In this document: positions 8,224 through 15,986 of the stretch, piece by piece
Layout: each line of letters begins with the position of its first letter
Position numbering within the stretch: the stretch's first letter is position 1
From: a virus
Taxonomy: Duplodnaviria > Heunggongvirae > Uroviricota > Caudoviricetes
IMG/VR virus record: IMGVR_UViG_2636415712_000006
Strand: one strand, 5' to 3'
Length of the DNA: 15,986 nucleotides
The notes under the pieces: generated by a model
Database searches by the model: none
Told to the model about the DNA's origin: nothing
The model's input: the letters and a program-made list of their open reading frames with translations, nothing else
Position numbers and translations under genes: made by a program

Positions 8224-8367
8224 TCGTCTGTTCCTTAAATCTTCCAGGAAATTTCTGCATTGCCGTCAGCATCACCGGCACCTGTGAATTCAGCGTTGGT
8301 CAGCACCACGTTTTTGCCACTGACTGACGTGGACATGAATCCACCCAGAGGCACTTTGATGGATTCA

Positions 8368-8724
8368 TCAGTGGAGATCGCCTTTTTTGATAGTGCTGGC
8401 ATCAAAATCAGAACCGAGATTAACGGTCACGTAGCCACGCTTCATGGCGTCGCCCGGGAAGTTCTTGCCTGTTCCCACCTGGCGAACCATGTCCGGCTGC
8501 GACGTGGTCGGATAAGGGCGCACGTAGATCCCCTTCACCTTGTCTGCGGTATCACCATCTGCCAGCGGCACGAAAAAACCGTCATCATCGTATTTACCAG
8601 CCAGGCCATAGGCAGCGAAGGCGTTATCGGATTTAAGGACCACCGGTTCGACGGTTAAGTCCTGCGGGCGAGAGACAGCCCCGGCAATGCCAACAGGCAT
8701 CCGGTACAGAAATACATTATTCAT
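8368..8724 (-). CDS. Small phage head protein (118 aa as read; possibly a longer protein interrupted at an A6 run, see findings)
   Basis: ORF starts 4 nt after the stop of the upstream gene (translational coupling). The +1 frame beyond its stop stays open for 50 more codons, ending 12 nt before the capsid-like start. Confidence 0.6.
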   Translation of the reverse strand: MNNVFLYRMPVGIAGAVSRPQDLTVEPVVLKSDNAFAAYGLAGKYDDDGFFVPLADGDTADKVKGIYVRPYPTTSQPDMVRQVGTGKNFPGDAMKRGYVTVNLGSDFDASTIKKGDLH

Positions 8725-8727
8725 TTT

Positions 8728-9948
8728 TTACCCTTTACGGTTTGCCCAGAATTCAGCGTTTTGTTTGTTCAGGGAAGCGATACTGGTCATGCCCATGTTT
8801 AGGCGCTGTGCATCGCCGGTGGTGGCGCGGGTGTTTCGCCCTTTGGCAACCTCAGACACGGCATTAAACGCCATGTCGACCGATTGTTTCGGTAATTTGC
8901 GGATATCCGCATCACCGACTATCTGGCGAACCAGCGTTTTGTCAGCAGAAGCCAGAACCTCGCGTTTGAACGCGGTCGGTTTCATCTTACGGCTCAGATC
9001 GATACCCGGAACGATAACTTCGGCACGCCAGGCTGAGTCACCAGTAATCGTGGTTTCCTCTTCATCGTCCTCGCCGTCACCGGTCGGATTATCGTCAGGC
9101 TTATTATCGTTATCGCCCGTGGCATTTCTTTCCAGCTTAGCCAGCAGGGCTTTCAGTAATGTTTTGAGGTCATCATCACTGTCGCCGGTTGGATCTCCGC
9201 CCATCTCTGGTGCTTTGTCCGGTAGTGGTTGCTGCGGGGACAGGTTGATGTTGAGATTAACGCCCTGCGGCAAATCCCCCTCATCTCCTGTAACCGATGC
9301 GGGAGCCGACTCCACCAGTTCGTTCATGGTGTCGGCATCTCCTGTCTTGATGGCCGCACGCATGCGGTTCCACCAGTTTTTCTTTTGATTTGCCATTGTG
9401 TCTCTGTCTCCAATTGCACAACGATTTCCGGCTCTGCCTTTAGGGACAAGAGCCACATGGTTTCCGGTAATATCGACCTGCTCGGCTTTACCTGGCTCGG
9501 TCTGCTCGTACTCCGCGTCATAGCCGCACGACACTTCGCGCAGGCCATCTTCGATAAGCTGAATGGCGCTTTCGTCTTTGACGATAAGGTCAGCCAGCAT
9601 CAAATCAGACTGCTCACCCGTCCCGCGCCGGACATTCTGGAGGTGCCCGACAGCAAGCACTTTCCAGTTCTCGGGATTTACCAGCCGCACATTCCCGTTT
9701 TCATCTTCAGGATGCAGGATCGTGATGCTCATCCCTTCGAATGAGGCAAGCGTGGCCGGATGGAATACCTGCTCAGGAGAACGCGTGACGACTATTTCAA
9801 CGAACTTATCGGGTTTCAGTTTTGGCAGGTCATCAGCACCATAGAGCTGCTTACCTGTTCGTCCTATCGGCACGTCTTTGCACAGCAACGAGCCGTCAGC
9901 CAGGCGGTATCGGGTTTCCCCGAGCCTGGTCTCAAAAAAGTATTTCAT
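8728..9948 (-). CDS. Putative head scaffolding / maturation protein (DUF2213-like) with acidic low-complexity central region
   Basis: 406-aa ORF immediately downstream of the MuF-like gene (3-nt spacer). Central D/E/G/T-rich stretch (TGDSDDDL...NPTGDGEDDEEETT), typical of scaffold proteins. Family assignment is from memory and unverified. Confidence 0.6.
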   Translation of the reverse strand: MKYFFETRLGETRYRLADGSLLCKDVPIGRTGKQLYGADDLPKLKPDKFVEIVVTRSPEQVFHPATLASFEGMSITILHPEDENGNVRLVNPENWKVLAVGHLQNVRRGTGEQSDLMLADLIVKDESAIQLIEDGLREVSCGYDAEYEQTEPGKAEQVDITGNHVALVPKGRAGNRCAIGDRDTMANQKKNWWNRMRAAIKTGDADTMNELVESAPASVTGDEGDLPQGVNLNINLSPQQPLPDKAPEMGGDPTGDSDDDLKTLLKALLAKLERNATGDNDNKPDDNPTGDGEDDEEETTITGDSAWRAEVIVPGIDLSRKMKPTAFKREVLASADKTLVRQIVGDADIRKLPKQSVDMAFNAVSEVAKGRNTRATTGDAQRLNMGMTSIASLNKQNAEFWANRKG

Positions 9949-9951
9949 GGG

Positions 9952-10734
9952 TTATGCTGCCCTTTTCATTGCGAATGGAACGCGAACAAACACGATCTCT
10001 TTATAGCAGCGGCAGTTTGGCAGCTCGCCCGCGTGGCCGGTCATGCCGTCCAAAGTTGGAGGTGAATCCCAGCGGACGAATTTACCTTTCATGTGATCGT
10101 GGGAATCTCGGACATCGCCATCATCGGCTGTACGCCAAATATAACCATCCGAGCCAATAGCTATCGCTCGGGCCATATCCAGCGCGCCCGTTGCTCTTCC
10201 CAGTTCCGTTCGGGCAATCAGATCGGCCCTAGACTTAGCAACATCGCCGGTAGATGCAATCTCTTTAGCAAACTGCTCCGCCCGACCACCGGTGACAACA
10301 GCCTCTATCGCTTTGTTCTGGATGTCGTACACCCTGTCTGCGGCCTCGAGAGGCAGAGATTTGATGTACTTGACCTGTTCGGCGATGATGGATTGCATCA
10401 CCTGGCCCACAGGAGCGCTTTCCACAAGATTGCGGAGCTCGCGACTGATGTTCTTGCTGTGTTGCCGCCAAACTTTCTCGTTCTGCCGGGTTAGGTCCGC
10501 AGTAAAGTTTTCCGCGACCTTTGTCGCCCAGGGGGTGATGATTTCACTGTAACGCTCCAGCGCCGCAATAATTTCCGTGATACTGTCATTTGAACCATCG
10601 TAGCGACCATTTACGATGTCTCCGACCGCCCTCGCTATCCTGCGTAGGCTGGTTCGATACCGGATTTCCGCCTGACGGCTCCTGCGGTTCGTCATCAGGT
10701 TCGCCGATGCCGGGCGGCGCTTCATCTTCGGCAT
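9952..10734 (-). CDS. Phage head morphogenesis protein, Mu F / SPP1 gp7 family
   Basis: 260-aa ORF directly after the portal gene. The C-terminal region (...DSHDHMKGKFVRWDSPPTLDGMTGHAGELPNCRCY...) resembles the MuF-family domain with a conserved Cys pair. GAGGA 8 nt upstream of the ATG at 10734. Confidence 0.7.
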   Translation of the reverse strand: MPKMKRRPASANLMTNRRSRQAEIRYRTSLRRIARAVGDIVNGRYDGSNDSITEIIAALERYSEIITPWATKVAENFTADLTRQNEKVWRQHSKNISRELRNLVESAPVGQVMQSIIAEQVKYIKSLPLEAADRVYDIQNKAIEAVVTGGRAEQFAKEIASTGDVAKSRADLIARTELGRATGALDMARAIAIGSDGYIWRTADDGDVRDSHDHMKGKFVRWDSPPTLDGMTGHAGELPNCRCYKEIVFVRVPFAMKRAA

Positions 10735-12052
10735 TCTCGATGTCCTCGTTGGTAATGGATGCCCCTATGCCGGTTACGTCAGAATTTTCTCGCAAATCAG
10801 TCATAGCGGCTTTCAGTGTCATCAGACCATCACCCAGCGCCGTACTGATTGCGTTGGTGGTGTTTAACGCCACCGTTGAGCGATCGACATCAGACATTTG
10901 CCAGAGCGGGTTAAACTCAAACGTGAAATCGTCCGGCAGCGGCTTGCCAAGTTCCGAACGATGCATGATGTCCAGTATCCGCCGCACCGGAAGACGTAAA
11001 CGCCTCTCCTGCAACGAACTGATGCGATCGTAATAGTTGGCAAGGTCTGCATCACCGGTAGAAAATCCTTTCGGGGACTGTCCGAACAACCGCACCAGTG
11101 GGATACCAACAGCGCCACTAATCTGTTCTGCAAACTGCGAAAGGATGTCATCCAGACCACTGAAGCTGTACTGATGGGTTTCAAACTTATCCCGCGAGTC
11201 CATGAGCGTCATGCCTTCATTACTCTGGAACTGTCGAATCAGGTCGATATTCTTCAGCAACGCTTCATACGCAGGACCACCAAGTGCGATAAGCTCGCGT
11301 AGCTTCTCCACGCTGTAGGTACGCAAATGCGCCTTGTAGACCAGCTGCGCCGCGCCGACAGTAGCGCTGTCGAACGCGGTAAGACGATCCCAGATACGCT
11401 CTACAACCGACATTCCCCATTCGTTCTCGGTCATCTTCTGCTGAAATGGCAACGTGACGCCATCAAAGCGAATCAGGCGACTGTGATGAATGCGCCAGGC
11501 AGGAATTCCCGTTGCTGTGGTCACCACATCGTAAAACTCAGGTTTACCCAGGTCCGGCCCCATATCTTTAATGCGGCGGGTCAGTGCCGGGTCGACCATC
11601 CAGCGGTCGAGCGGGAGAATCCCCTTAAACTTGCCCTTACCGATGGTTTCGGGTCGCAGCGGGGTCATTGGTGCCTGCCCCTCAATCATGATGAAACCCA
11701 CCGCGCCGCCGTAGAGGCGCGACCATTTCAGCACGTCATTCAGCGCATCCCAGATTTGCAACTCATCCAGTTGTGATTCGAGAATGCCACGATCTTTTGC
11801 ATCAATTTCCGAAGTGATGCGAATGCCTTTGCGGGTCATATCATCCGGGATAGCATCGACTGCTTCGCCGATGATCCAGGATGAACGATAGGACCATTCC
11901 ACCAGCATGCGGTTACGACTGGTGAAATTAGCCCGGTAGGTGGATGCTGAGTGCTGGTTAGGTGTCTGCATCCCTACTCGGGCAATAAAATTCTCATAAC
12001 CATCAGCTGTGGCCTGCACAGTTCGCCGCAGGGCTTGTTTGTTTCGTGCCAT
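10586..12052 (-). CDS. Phage portal protein
   Basis: 488-aa ORF immediately following the terminase large subunit with a TGATG stop/start overlap at 12050-12054. Acidic/proline-rich C-terminal tail. Size and position are typical of portals. Confidence 0.7.
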   Translation of the reverse strand: MARNKQALRRTVQATADGYENFIARVGMQTPNQHSASTYRANFTSRNRMLVEWSYRSSWIIGEAVDAIPDDMTRKGIRITSEIDAKDRGILESQLDELQIWDALNDVLKWSRLYGGAVGFIMIEGQAPMTPLRPETIGKGKFKGILPLDRWMVDPALTRRIKDMGPDLGKPEFYDVVTTATGIPAWRIHHSRLIRFDGVTLPFQQKMTENEWGMSVVERIWDRLTAFDSATVGAAQLVYKAHLRTYSVEKLRELIALGGPAYEALLKNIDLIRQFQSNEGMTLMDSRDKFETHQYSFSGLDDILSQFAEQISGAVGIPLVRLFGQSPKGFSTGDADLANYYDRISSLQERRLRLPVRRILDIMHRSELGKPLPDDFTFEFNPLWQMSDVDRSTVALNTTNAISTALGDGLMTLKAAMTDLRENSDVTGIGASITNEDIENAEDEAPPGIGEPDDEPQEPSGGNPVSNQPTQDSEGGRRHRKWSLRWFK

Positions 12053-12785
12053 CAGGCCTGTCTCCCCAGCTGTTCCCAGATATCCAGCGATGTATCGATT
12101 GGCGCGAAGGCCATAATGAATGCATCAGCAACGTTTGGTGACGGTATCTCGCGTTTTGCGAGGTCTTTTTTACTTTCGACCATCACACGTCCGTTACGGT
12201 CGAAATCACGATGAGGTGTTGTCAGTTCCAGTTTCAGCTTTTCAAGCAACGGACAACGAGAATCTATGCTGATCAGCTCATCCACAGGATACTGTTCTCC
12301 GTTGTTAATGGCGTTAAACGTATTTCTGAAACGGTCAGCCACCATGCCTGAGCCTTAAGATTTGCGAAAAAGTCTTTGTTGGGGATGCCGTTGTACTCGT
12401 CATCTGGCTCATGCACACCAGCACCGGCGTTAAACCTCTGGTAATTCACACGTCGCGCGTATGCGTTCTCGCTCTTCCGGTCAGCGTTAATTTCAGAGAA
12501 TTTAGCACCGGCAGACGCACCAACACCGATAGAGTCGTAAACAATATCTGCTTCACGCTCCAGCGCCGCCTGATAAGTACGCTGGCAGCTCTTCAGTAAT
12601 TCATCTTCTTTGGCCTTCCATTCGTCGGCCCAGAAAACAACGGATCCGTGACGGTAAACGTTAGCGCACTTATCTGTACCACTGTCAGCCACGTCAAAGC
12701 CAATACGCTTTCTTCCACTGGGTTCGAAATTTAACGTTTTGTGCGCATCCACTGCGGCTTCTATCCAAGACAGTTTGATGATTGC
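12052..12785 (-). pseudogene. Terminase large subunit, C-terminal nuclease portion (downstream of the IS2 insertion), containing an internal frameshift
   Basis: Frame A (12276..12785) reads AIIKLSWIEAAVDAHKTLNFEPSGRKRIGFDVADSGTDKCA...KDFFANLKAQAWW, a nuclease-domain-like sequence. It switches to frame B (12052..12354: ...VADRFRNTFNAINNGEQYPVDELISID...NVADAFIMAFAPID...) around 12336-12348. Both pieces look like one terminase C-terminus. Confidence 0.7.
12781..12785. repeat. IS2 target-site duplication, left copy (ATTGC)
   Basis: ATTGC immediately flanks the IS2 terminus at 12786 and is repeated at 14117-14121 on the other side. Confidence 0.8.
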
Positions 12786-12796
12786 TGGATTTGCCC

Positions 12797-13702
12797 CTAT
12801 ATTTCCAGACATCTGTTATCACTTAACCCATTACAAGCCCGCTGCCGCAGATATTCCCGTGGCGAGCGATAACCCAGCGCACTATGCGGATGCCATTCGT
12901 TATAATGCTCGAACGCCTCTGCAAGGTTCTTTGCTGCCGTTAACCCGTCTGGTTTGGGCATGATACTGATGTAGTCACGCTTTATCGTTTTCACGAAGCT
13001 CTCTGCTATTCCGTTACTCTCCGGACTCCGCACCGCCGTGTTCTTCGGTTCAAGTCCCAACATCCGGGCGAACTGGCGTGTTTCATTAGCCCGGTAGCAT
13101 GAACCATTATCCGTCAGCCACTCCACTGGAGACGACGGAAGATCGTTGCCGAAGCGGCGTTCCACCGCTCCCAGCATGACGTCCTGTACTGTTTCACTGT
13201 TGAAGCCGCCGGTAGTCACCGCCCAGTGCAGTGCCTCACGATCACAGCAGTCCAGCGCGAACGTGACACGCAGTCTCTCTCCGTTATCACAGCAGAACTC
13301 GAACCCGTCAGAGCACCATCGCTGATTGCTTTCTTTCACGGCCACTCTGCCTGTATGTGCCCGTTTCGATGGCGGTACAGCAGGTTTTCGCTCAAGCAAC
13401 AGCGCATTCTGGCGCATGAGCCGGTAAACACGTTTGGCATTGATCGCAGGCATACCATCAAGTTCTGCCTGTCTGCGAAGCAGCGCCCATACCCGACGAT
13501 AACCATACGTGGGCAGCTCTCCGATAACATGGTGTATACGGAGAAGCACATCCGTATCATCAGTGTGACGACTGCGGCGGCCATCCATCCAGTCATCGGT
13601 TCGTCTGAGAATGACGTGCAACTGCGCACGCGACACCCGGAGACAACGGCTGACTAAGCTTACTCCCCATCCCCGGGCAATAAGGGCGCGTGCGCTATCC
13701 AC
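12797..13702 (-). CDS. insD: IS2 transposase InsD (OrfB, DDE integrase core)
   Basis: 301-aa [37 protein letters not shown]...; matches my memory of IS2 InsD. Confidence 0.9.
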
Positions 13703-14025
13703 TTTTTTGCCCGTCCATATTCAACGGCTTCTTTGAGGAGTTCATTTTCCATCGTTTTCTTGCCGAGCAGGCGCTGGAGTTCTTTAATCTGCTTCATGGC
13801 GGCAGCAAGTTCAGAGGCAGGAACAACCTGTTCTCCGGCGGCCACAGCAGTAAGACTTCCTTCCTGGTATTGCTTACGCCAGAGAAATAACTGGCTGGCT
13901 GCTACACCATGTTGCCGGGCAACGAGGGAGACCGTCATCCCCGGTTCAAAGCTCTGCTGAACAATTGCGATCTTTTCCTGTGTGGTACGCCGTCTGCGTT
14001 TCTCCGGCCCTAAGACATCAATCAT
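13660..14025 (-). CDS. insC: IS2 InsC (OrfA)
   Basis: Start taken at the internal Met giving [40 protein letters not shown]... (121 aa), the canonical InsC. The ORF track extends it 15 codons upstream to 14070. Confidence 0.9.
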
Positions 14026-14116
14026 CTGTTCTCCAATGACTAGTCTAAAAACTAGTATTAAGACTATCACTTAAATAAGTGATACTGGTTGTCTGGAGAT
14101 TCAGGGGGCCAGTCTA

Positions 14117-14121
14117 ATTGC
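14117..14121. repeat. IS2 target-site duplication, right copy (ATTGC)
   Basis: See left copy at 12781-12785. Confidence 0.8.
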
Positions 14122-14808
14122 CGCATCATCATCAGACTCCGGAACGCCCTCATACACATGTTTAAAACCATCCGGATCACGGCGTCGCGCCGCGTCGATA
14201 ACCTTAAGCATGGTGTCAGACAGAAACGGATTTTCGTCATAGTTAATTTTGCGGATGAGAGTGCCTTCGGGCGGATCAACAACGAAGTTGCGCCAGACGA
14301 AATCAGTAACAAGTCCGGGGTTGAATATGAACCAGCATTCCGAACCCTCTTTACGGATCGTTGGCTCCAGAATTTTCCACTGGTATTCCGTCAGTGCGTG
14401 GGCTTCTTCCAGCCACAACATATCGATCCCCTCCAGTGACTTAATTTCTTCGATGTTGCGCCATAATCCATAAAAAACAAATTCCGAGCCAGTAACCCGG
14501 TTAATGATTTTGTTGTTCAGAATACGGAAACGGTGCCGCAGACCAAACCTGTCTATCTGAATTTTGAGCAGGGTATACACCGACTCTTCGATTTTATTCT
14601 GGATCTGACGGGCACAACAAAAACGCAGGGTGTATTTATTCGACAGAAATATGGCAATGCCAGCGGCATCCCATGATTTTGACGATGACCGACCACCATA
14701 AAGCACTTTGTTACGTGCCCGCATAGTCCAGAAACTACGTAAAGCCGGATTCAGCGTCGGTTTGGATGTCAGAGTAGAAGTCATTGAGGTCACGCTCTCC
14801 ATTGCCAT
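14117..14808 (-). pseudogene. Terminase large subunit, N-terminal ATPase portion (upstream of the IS2 insertion)
   Basis: Minus-strand frame reads MAMESVTSMTSTLTSKPTLNPALRSFWTMRARNKVLYGGRSSSKSWDAAGIAIFL... with Walker A-like GGRSSSKS and Walker B-like IDMLWLEEA, then runs into the IS2 end at 14116. The ATG at 14806-14808 directly abuts the IS911 terminus at 14810. Confidence 0.75.
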
Positions 14809-14817
14809 CTGAAGTGG

Positions 14818-15986
<1,169 letters not shown>

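What the first reader, a model, noticed from the sequence alone, without database searches (positions are those of the whole stretch)
8235..8392. Possible frameshift or recoding at an A6 run near the end of the small head gene, giving a 50-codon C-terminal extension
The 118-aa ORF ends ...TIKKGDLH* at 8368. The +1 frame entered at the lysine codons AAA AAA G (plus-strand T6 run at 8383-8388) stays open for 50 codons (SKKAISTDESIKVPLGGFMSTSVSGKNVVLTNAEFTGAGDADGNAEISWKI*). Its TAA stop at 8235-8237 sits 12 nt upstream of the capsid-like ATG with an AGGA in between, the same tight coupling seen elsewhere in the module. Read as 118 aa, it leaves a 145-nt gap that is unusual here. Candidates are a homopolymer indel (decay or sequencing error) or a programmed shift producing a longer structural variant.
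Basis: seen in the sequence. Interest (0 to 1): 0.45.

Follow-up and report, generated by a model that had tools for sequence, protein, structure and literature searches.

The report
Phage cement gene broken by deletion
The "50-codon extension" is the real C-terminal end of a phage capsid cement-protein gene, put out of frame by an inherited 17-base deletion next to (not in) the A-run, in a dead, IS-riddled Shigella flexneri prophage remnant: ordinary gene decay, not recoding.

Summary
A 118-aa ORF (8368-8724, minus strand) ends just after an A6 run. The +1 frame stays open to a TAA at 8235-8237, 11 nt before the capsid ATG.

The A-run is not the lesion. Intact relatives carry the same A6, read in frame as Lys-Lys, inside one 165-168-aa "structural cement protein Gp24" gene. 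These relatives are 338 E. coli prophages, 80 of 80 IMG/VR contigs, phage vB_EcoM-606R2 and Salmonella phage SEN34.

The window lacks 17 nt (TCCGGTATACGTTGTCG, encoding PVYVV) immediately after the run. The junction is at 8376/8377 and is flanked by a 2-nt TC microhomology. Joining the frames restores an end-to-end Pfam match, from 1-112 to 1-153 of 154 profile positions.

The junction is identical in two other complete genomes. The exact 118-aa product occurs on at least 1000 public contigs, including S. flexneri 2a 301. It is therefore an inherited allele, not a read error.

The surrounding prophage is a 7.8-kb remnant. IS elements cut both ends. An IS2 and a second small (7-bp) frameshifting deletion break the terminase gene.

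Verdict: a pseudogene made by a small deletion. Nothing supports programmed frameshifting. Low interest.

The parts
8235..8724 (-). Whole pseudogene of a phage structural cement protein (Gp24 / PF22758 / PF23982 family). It is 490 nt here and 507 nt (168 aa) in intact relatives.
   Evidence: Alignment with intact genes. RefSeq names for the relatives. Pfam matches.
8368..8724 (-). 5' part still in the original frame. It gives the 118-aa truncated ORF ending GDLH*, whose last two codons and stop are new, out-of-frame sequence.
   Evidence: Pfam covers only positions 1-112 of 154. The exact product is widespread in S. flexneri.
8376..8377 (-). Deletion junction. 17 nt (TCCGGTATACGTTGTCG in the closest relative, encoding PVYVV) are missing. 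The retained TC is a 2-nt microhomology, so the breakpoint is ambiguous within 8375-8378.
8383..8388 (-). A6 run (T6 on the plus strand). It encodes Lys-Lys in frame, is conserved in intact relatives, and is not the lesion.
   Evidence: also A6 in SEN34 at 78% DNA identity. (A6 in frame 0 in 80 of 80 relatives).
8235..8375 (-). 3' part of the cement gene, now in the +1 frame relative to the start codon (STDESIKVPLGG...AEISWKI*). Its TAA lies 11 nt before the capsid ATG, as in intact relatives.
   Evidence: 11-nt spacer in 77 of 80 relatives.
7282..8223 (-). Major capsid protein gene (DUF2184 / PF09950), immediately downstream.
8728..9948 (-). DUF2213 head gene, immediately upstream.
7042..14809 (-). 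Full extent of the prophage remnant (terminase to capsid). Homology to intact prophages stops at both coordinates.
12336..12337 (-). Second small frameshifting deletion. One unit of a 7-bp tandem repeat (CAGCCAC x2 on the plus strand of the relative) is lost in the terminase large-subunit gene.
12786..14116 (-). IS2-like IS3-family element inserted in the terminase large-subunit gene, with a 5-bp target duplication ATTGC.
5778..7041 (+). IS600-like IS3-family element. It cuts off the prophage just downstream of the capsid gene, inside the STY1053-family gene. The left end is inferred from the TGAG terminus and from the 1264-bp length of IS600, which I recalled from memory.

Best explanation
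Region 8235-8724 (minus strand) is a pseudogene of a phage capsid cement protein. In a working phage this roughly 168-aa protein is made from one reading frame. [quoted passage not shown] In this lineage a 17-nt deletion removed the codons for PVYVV plus two more bases. It was probably a replication or repair slip between two TC dinucleotides. Translation from the original ATG therefore runs out of frame after Gly-Asp and stops two codons later (…KKGDLH*). The last 47 codons and the original stop are left stranded in the +1 frame. That explains the open extension, the capsid-coupled TAA and the apparent 144-nt gap. The A6 run five bases upstream is an ordinary conserved Lys-Lys and plays no part. 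The deletion is one of several inactivating lesions in a Shigella flexneri prophage remnant that can no longer make particles. It is neutral decay, inherited clonally.
For: Shown directly:
1. The alignment with three intact homologues has a single 17-column gap right after GGCGA. The A6 run is identical in all four sequences. The same gap appears against the closest relative, which is 99.2% identical.
2. 80 of 80 IMG/VR relatives have one 168-aa ORF, A6 in frame 0, and KKGDPVYVVVSTDES.
3. 338 E. coli complete genomes match across the whole region. In every record listed the match is 17 nt longer than the query and is annotated 'structural cement protein Gp24'. None of the 5426 genomes spans the deletion junction.
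4. Pfam PF23982 coverage rises from positions 1-112 to 1-153 of 154 (79 to 95 bits) when the two frames are joined. PF22758 rises from 47 to 65 bits. The extension alone hits the C-terminal ends of both profiles.
5. The exact junction occurs in S. flexneri SFBU1023 and in 'E. coli' ECMA0423. Each is 99.86% identical to the window over 8 kb without gaps.
6. The exact 118-aa product is on at least 1000 contigs, including S. flexneri 2a 301.
7. The remnant has other lesions. IS elements truncate it at 7041/7042 and 14809/14810. The terminase gene carries an IS2 insertion with a 5-bp target duplication and a 7-bp repeat-unit deletion.

From the literature: the cement trimer function of the family (Pam3 gp6, PMC9942802).

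Inferred: the slippage mechanism at the TC microhomology, and the neutrality of the lesion.
Against: Nothing I tested contradicts it. Three limits remain. I had no expression or proteomic data, so a low level of frame restoration cannot be formally excluded. A 2-nt microhomology is weak evidence for any particular deletion mechanism. The order of the lesions (17-nt deletion versus IS events) is unknown, so the deletion could in principle have arisen while the phage was still active.
Confidence: 0.94

Rival explanations
1. Homopolymer indel at the A6 run. On this reading the ancestral gene had A5, and a one-base insertion, or a sequencing error, produced A6 and the frameshift.
For: Arithmetically, removing one A joins the two frames and gives a 162-aa protein with a full-length Pfam match.
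Against: All intact homologues have A6, not A5, at this position, read as AAA AAA. The frame change is fully explained by the 17-nt gap 5 nt downstream. The allele is identical in independent complete genomes and on at least 1000 contigs, so it is not a read error.
Confidence: 0.01
2. Programmed +1 (or -2) ribosomal frameshifting, or transcriptional slippage, at AAA AAA G. This would produce a full-length structural variant alongside the 118-aa product.
For: An A6G run lies inside the roughly 40-nt overlap of the two frames. From general knowledge, lysine tRNA can slip on A-runs.
Against: - The two-frame arrangement is absent from every relative examined; all encode the protein in one frame.
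- The same A-run is read straight through in those relatives.
- The shift needed is +1, whereas A AAA AAG-type sites promote -1 (general knowledge).
- The following zero-frame codon GGC is not a slow codon (general knowledge), and I saw no Shine-Dalgarno-like stimulator upstream in the sequence.
- From general knowledge, A6 is too short for efficient transcriptional slippage.
- The shifted product would still lack six residues (DPVYVV).
- The host element has no tail genes and a broken terminase, so there is nothing for a structural variant to act on.
Confidence: 0.02
3. The truncated 118-aa protein is a retained, functional fragment, for example an N-terminal capsid-binding piece that interferes with related superinfecting phages.
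For: The exact 118-aa sequence is very widespread in S. flexneri. In Pam3 gp6 the N-terminal loop of the family makes most of the capsid contacts (PMC9942802).
Against: - S. flexneri is clonal, so wide occurrence is expected for a neutral inherited lesion.
- The fragment ends inside the conserved domain at profile position about 112 of 154, so misfolding is likely.
- Neighbouring genes show the same kind of decay.
- No promoter or regulatory region of the phage remains in the remnant; both ends are IS elements.
Confidence: 0.03

Closest known systems
Phage structural cement protein family (Pfam PF22758 'Phage_cement', E217 gp24 / Pam3 gp6; PF23982 'XM1_gp53_minor_capsid'; RefSeq name 'structural cement protein Gp24')
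   Same: Sequence matches are well above the curated cut-offs. The gene sits between the DUF2213 head gene and the DUF2184 major capsid gene, as in E. coli prophages, phage vB_EcoM-606R2 and Salmonella phage SEN34. The reconstructed length and both ends match the profiles.
   Different: This copy is interrupted by a 17-nt deletion. As encoded, it yields only the first 116 family residues plus two foreign ones. No solved structure is close enough to detect by sequence alone.
Prophage decay in Shigella (IS expansion plus small frameshifting deletions producing pseudogenes)
   Same: Three IS3-family elements bound or interrupt the remnant. Two short out-of-frame deletions (17 bp and 7 bp) lie in structural or packaging genes. 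The allele is fixed across many S. flexneri assemblies.
   Different: Nothing distinctive. This is a textbook example.
Programmed frameshifts in phage structural modules and IS3-family transposases (lambda G/GT-type tail chaperone, IS911/IS2 orfAB at A6G)
   Same: An A6G string lies near the frame change. True IS3-type A6G/A7G sites are present elsewhere in this same window, at the orfA/orfB junctions.
   Different: The cement-gene A-run is read in frame in all intact relatives. The frame needed is +1, not -1. The two-frame layout is not conserved. It does not behave like these systems.

Membership tests
Phage structural cement protein (PF22758 / PF23982) | Sequence match to the family profile above the curated gathering score | tested here: met
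   118-aa ORF: PF23982 79.1 bits and PF22758 47.2 bits, cut-off 27 for both.
Phage structural cement protein (PF22758 / PF23982) | Complete domain encoded in one reading frame | tested here: not met
   The ORF covers only profile positions 1-112 of 154. The remainder (about 118-153) is in the +1 frame. Intact relatives cover 1-153 in one frame. This copy is therefore a pseudogene of the family, not a functional member.
Phage structural cement protein (PF22758 / PF23982) | Gene placed immediately upstream of the major capsid gene in the head module | tested here: met
   Gene order is DUF2213, then cement, then DUF2184 capsid, in the window and in relatives.
Phage structural cement protein (PF22758 / PF23982) | Forms trimers at capsid three-fold axes (Pam3 gp6, PMC9942802) | not testable with these tools
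   This needs virions or cryo-EM. The remnant cannot make particles.
Programmed ribosomal frameshift / recoding site | The two-frame gene layout is conserved among relatives | tested here: not met
   80 of 80 IMG/VR relatives, SEN34, 606R2 and the E. coli prophages encode a single 165-168-aa ORF.
Programmed ribosomal frameshift / recoding site | Slippery sequence suited to the required direction, plus a stimulator (slow codon, SD-like element or downstream structure) | tested here: inconclusive
   By inspection of the sequence only. A6G is present, but the required shift is +1. The next codon is GGC, and no SD-like element lies upstream. I ran no RNA structure or reporter test because the conservation test had already failed.
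Programmed ribosomal frameshift / recoding site | A trans-frame protein product is detected | not testable with these tools
   This needs proteomics or ribosome profiling of S. flexneri.
Homopolymer-tract indel (phase variation or sequencing error) | Tract length differs between the disrupted copy and intact copies | tested here: not met
   The tract is A6 in the window and in all 84 intact genes examined.
Pseudogene in a degraded prophage | A frame-disrupting lesion relative to intact orthologues, reproducible in independent assemblies, within an element that carries other inactivating lesions | tested here: met
   The 17-nt deletion. The same junction in two other complete genomes, and the product on at least 1000 contigs. 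IS truncations, an IS2 insertion and a 7-bp deletion in the terminase gene.

The most novel reading that the evidence does not exclude
The truncated 118-aa fragment keeps the family's N-terminal capsid-contacting part. It could be expressed in S. flexneri and act as a dominant-negative decoy against capsid assembly of related superinfecting myophages. Alternatively, a low level of +1 slippage at AAA AAG could yield a six-residue-shorter cement protein. Neither is excluded, because I had no expression data.
Probability: 0.02. Interest if true: 0.45.

Novelty: already known. Interest (0 to 1): 0.06.

Why it matters
It matters little biologically. This is routine decay of a prophage remnant in an IS-rich Shigella genome, and public records already carry the truncated product as a "putative bacteriophage protein".

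The practical value is for annotation. Region 8235-8724 should be called one frameshifted pseudogene of a structural cement protein, not a 118-aa gene plus a spacer.

The case also shows that a homopolymer next to a frame change is not necessarily its cause. Only comparison with intact orthologues located the real lesion.

Tried and rejected
- **A5-to-A6 insertion model.** Rejected. Intact genes have A6.
- **Sequencing or assembly error.** Rejected. The identical junction occurs in two other complete genomes, and the exact product is on at least 1000 contigs.
- **The same deletion in E. coli complete genomes.** None of 5426 spans the junction, so the allele is confined to the Shigella-type lineage.
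The extension alone gives only sub-threshold hits. Two are to the C-terminal ends of the two cement-protein profiles. One is a chance-level DUF5061 hit that also appears, more weakly, in the intact protein.
- **Solved structure by sequence.** No meaningful PDB hit for the intact homologue.
- **Comparison with phage vB_EcoM-606R2 over the whole remnant.** Only 7042-12081 align at megablast sensitivity; the terminase region is mosaic. I used E. coli FDAARGOS_944 instead.
- **First literature search (cement protein / gp24 / E217).** It returned only a P1 paper that uses gp24 for other proteins. The Pam3 paper was the useful one.
- **Not run.** Structure prediction and the large protein-database searches. 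The question was already settled and they would not change the verdict.

Full report
**1. The observation**

Reading the minus strand, an ATG at 8724 opens a 118-aa ORF. It ends ...ACT ATC AAA AAA GGC GAT CTC CAC TGA, with the stop at 8368-8370. The A6 run is at 8388-8383 (T6 on the plus strand). The +1 frame across the run reads SKKAISTDESIKVPLGGFMSTSVSGKNVVLTNAEFTGAGDADGNAEISWKI and stops at TAA 8237-8235. Eleven nucleotides later (GGAACAGACGA) the 313-aa capsid gene starts at ATG 8223. Read as 118 aa, the gene leaves a 144-nt gap.

**2. What the genes are**

Pfam identifies a head module on the minus strand:

| Coordinates | Gene | Pfam |
|---|---|---|
| 10586-12052 | portal | PF06381 |
| 9952-10734 | Mu-F-like head morphogenesis | PF04233 |
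| 8728-9948 | DUF2213 head gene | PF09979 |
| 8368-8724 | the 118-aa ORF | PF23982 and PF22758 |
| 7282-8223 | major capsid | PF09950 |

- The 118-aa ORF matches PF23982 (XM1 gp53 minor capsid protein, 79 bits) and PF22758 (structural cement protein, E217 gp24/Pam3 gp6, 47 bits).
- It covers only profile positions 1-112 of 154.
- Joining the two frames extends coverage to 1-153 of 154 and raises both scores by 16-18 bits.
- The extension alone hits the C-terminal ends of both profiles, below threshold.

The extension is therefore the family's genuine C-terminus and not a chance open frame.

**3. Where the frame actually breaks**

A search of E. coli complete genomes found 338 genomes that match across the region. 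In every record listed the match is 578 nt against the 561-nt query and is annotated "structural cement protein Gp24". Related phages were also found. In E. coli FDAARGOS_943, phage vB_EcoM-606R2 and Salmonella phage SEN34 the gene is a single ORF of 507, 507 and 498 nt. In each it ends 11 nt before the capsid ATG.

The four-way alignment has exactly one indel in the window relative to the two close relatives. That indel is a 17-column gap directly after ...ATC AAA AAA GGC GA. The relatives read GGC GAT CCG GTA TAC GTT GTC GTC TCC ACT GAT (G D P V Y V V V S T D). The window reads GGC GAT CTC CAC TGA.

The A6 run is identical in all four sequences. That includes SEN34, which is only 78% identical in DNA and reads GTT AAA AAA GGG. 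In the intact genes the run is read as Lys-Lys in frame.

Against the closest intact relative (FDAARGOS_944, 99.2% identical) the gap falls at window 8376. The missing bases are flanked by a TC/TC (plus strand GA/GA) 2-nt microhomology.

Seventeen is not a multiple of three. The 3' third of the gene is therefore left in the +1 frame. That accounts for the open frame, the coupled TAA and the apparent spacer.

**4. Breadth of the comparison**

A scan of IMG/VR returned 398 relatives. In the 80 best (at least 98% identical in protein):
- every one has a single 168-aa ORF;
- every one has A6 in frame 0;
- every one has KKGDPVYVVVSTDES;
- 77 have the 11-nt spacer to the capsid ATG.

No relative shows a two-frame arrangement.

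**5. Real allele or error?**

- The exact 31-nt junction occurs in two other complete genomes, S. flexneri SFBU1023 and "E. coli" ECMA0423 (4.44 Mb).
- Each of those aligns to the window over 8 kb at 99.86% identity with no gaps.
- No E. coli RefSeq complete genome spans the junction.
- The exact 118-aa product is in the public protein collection on at least 1000 contigs. Its names include [quoted passage not shown].

The deletion is thus a real, clonally inherited allele of the S. flexneri lineage. The window is evidently from an S. flexneri-type genome.

**6. Context: a dead prophage**

Homology to intact prophages covers only 7042-14809.
- At 7041/7042 the remnant abuts an IS600-like IS3-family element (about 5778-7041; orfA 5842-6144, orfB 6180-6998). 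This element truncates the STY1053-family gene just after the capsid gene. All neck, tail and lysis genes are gone.
- On the other side of that IS lies a truncated Mu-type transposase (4146-5780), a Mu-repressor-like ORF (3254-3763) and chromosomal dcuC (1047-2534).
- The terminase large-subunit gene is interrupted by an IS2-like element (12786-14116) with a 5-bp target duplication ATTGC.
- The same terminase gene carries a second small frameshifting deletion at 12336. One unit of a 7-bp tandem repeat CAGCCAC is lost.
- A third IS3-family element begins at 14810, 25 nt upstream of the terminase start.

With both ends removed and the terminase broken twice, there is no selection on a capsid accessory protein. 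The 17-nt deletion is one more decay lesion.

**7. Mechanism**

*Shown:* a 17-nt deletion causes the frame change, the truncation and the stranded C-terminal coding region.

*Inferred:*
- The deletion arose by slippage or misrepair at the TC microhomology.
- The 118-aa product, if made at all, is non-functional. It stops inside the conserved domain and lacks the hydrophobic PVYVVV stretch, which I take to be a beta-strand, together with everything after it.

For the intact protein, the solved family member Pam3 gp6 is a beta-tulip domain plus a seven-stranded C-terminal domain. [quoted passage not shown] Its N-terminal loop contacts neighbouring capsomers (PMC9942802). By family membership the ancestral protein here presumably did the same.

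**8. Rivals**

- *A homopolymer indel at A6* is refuted by the conserved A6.
- *Sequencing error* is refuted by independent assemblies.
- *Programmed frameshifting or transcriptional slippage* fails the key test of a conserved two-frame layout. It would also require a +1 shift at a site with no recognisable stimulator. Its product would lack six residues, in an element that cannot build capsids.
- *A domesticated truncated fragment* cannot be excluded without expression data. It has no positive support beyond clonal prevalence.

**9. Comparison with the known, and novelty**

The gene is a disrupted member of a known, structurally characterised phage family. The process is the well-known IS-driven and deletion-driven prophage decay of Shigella. 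Public records already list the truncated ORF. Nothing here is new in kind.

As an aside, the true programmed -1 frameshift-type motifs in this window are the A6G/A7G strings at the orfA/orfB junctions of the three IS3-family elements (6093 plus strand; 13702 and 15729 minus strand). The cement-gene A-run is not one of them.

**10. Verdict**

It is wrong about the site and the mechanism, and the recoding alternative is unsupported. Interest is low.

Noticed in passing
window 12336 (minus-strand terminase large-subunit gene; ORFs 12052-12345 and 12273-12812): A second small frameshifting deletion. The intact relative has a 7-bp tandem repeat CAGCCAC-CAGCCAC (plus strand) and the window has one unit. 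This is a classic slipped-strand loss, and it splits the terminase reading frame.
   Followed up: partly
window 12786-14116: An IS2-like IS3-family element (orfB 12797-13702, orfA 13660-14070) inserted in the terminase large-subunit gene, with a 5-bp target-site duplication ATTGC.
   Followed up: partly
window ~5778-7041: An IS600-like IS3-family element (orfA 5842-6144, orfB 6180-6998). It joins a truncated Mu-type transposase gene (4146-5780) to a truncated phage STY1053-family gene (6995-7240). This suggests IS-mediated deletion or rearrangement between two different prophage remnants.
   Followed up: partly
window 14810-15986: A third IS3-family element (orfB 14818-15657, orfA 15684-15986, runs off the window). 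Its terminus TGAAGTGGTCAACAAAAACTG looks IS911-like from memory. It cuts the prophage 25 nt upstream of the terminase start.
   Followed up: no
window 6093 (+), 13702 (-), 15729 (-): A6G/A7G strings sit at the orfA/orfB junctions of all three IS3-family elements. These are the positions where this IS family is known to use programmed -1 frameshifting. They are the genuine recoding-type sites in this window.
   Followed up: no
window 3254-3763 (-) and 4146-5780 (+): A Mu-like repressor/DNA-binding ORF (PF02316) and a Mu-type transposase A (PF02914 and others), the latter truncated at 544 aa by the IS. Together they look like a separate Mu-like prophage remnant next to chromosomal dcuC (1047-2534).
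   Followed up: no
window 9952-10734 versus 10586-12052 (minus strand): The longest ORF of the Mu-F-like head morphogenesis gene overlaps the end of the portal gene by 149 nt. RefSeq annotates a 110-nt overlap in relatives, and GenBank phage 606R2 uses a much later start. In E. coli FDAARGOS_943 this gene is itself flagged as a pseudogene (internal stop). The true start was not resolved.
   Followed up: no
L087 5055-5608 (E. coli FDAARGOS_944) and L001 1066-1809 (FDAARGOS_943): The closest 'intact' E. coli prophages also carry their own pseudogenes, in a frameshifted neck/tail gene and a head morphogenesis gene with an internal stop. Decay of this prophage type is therefore common outside Shigella too.
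   Followed up: no
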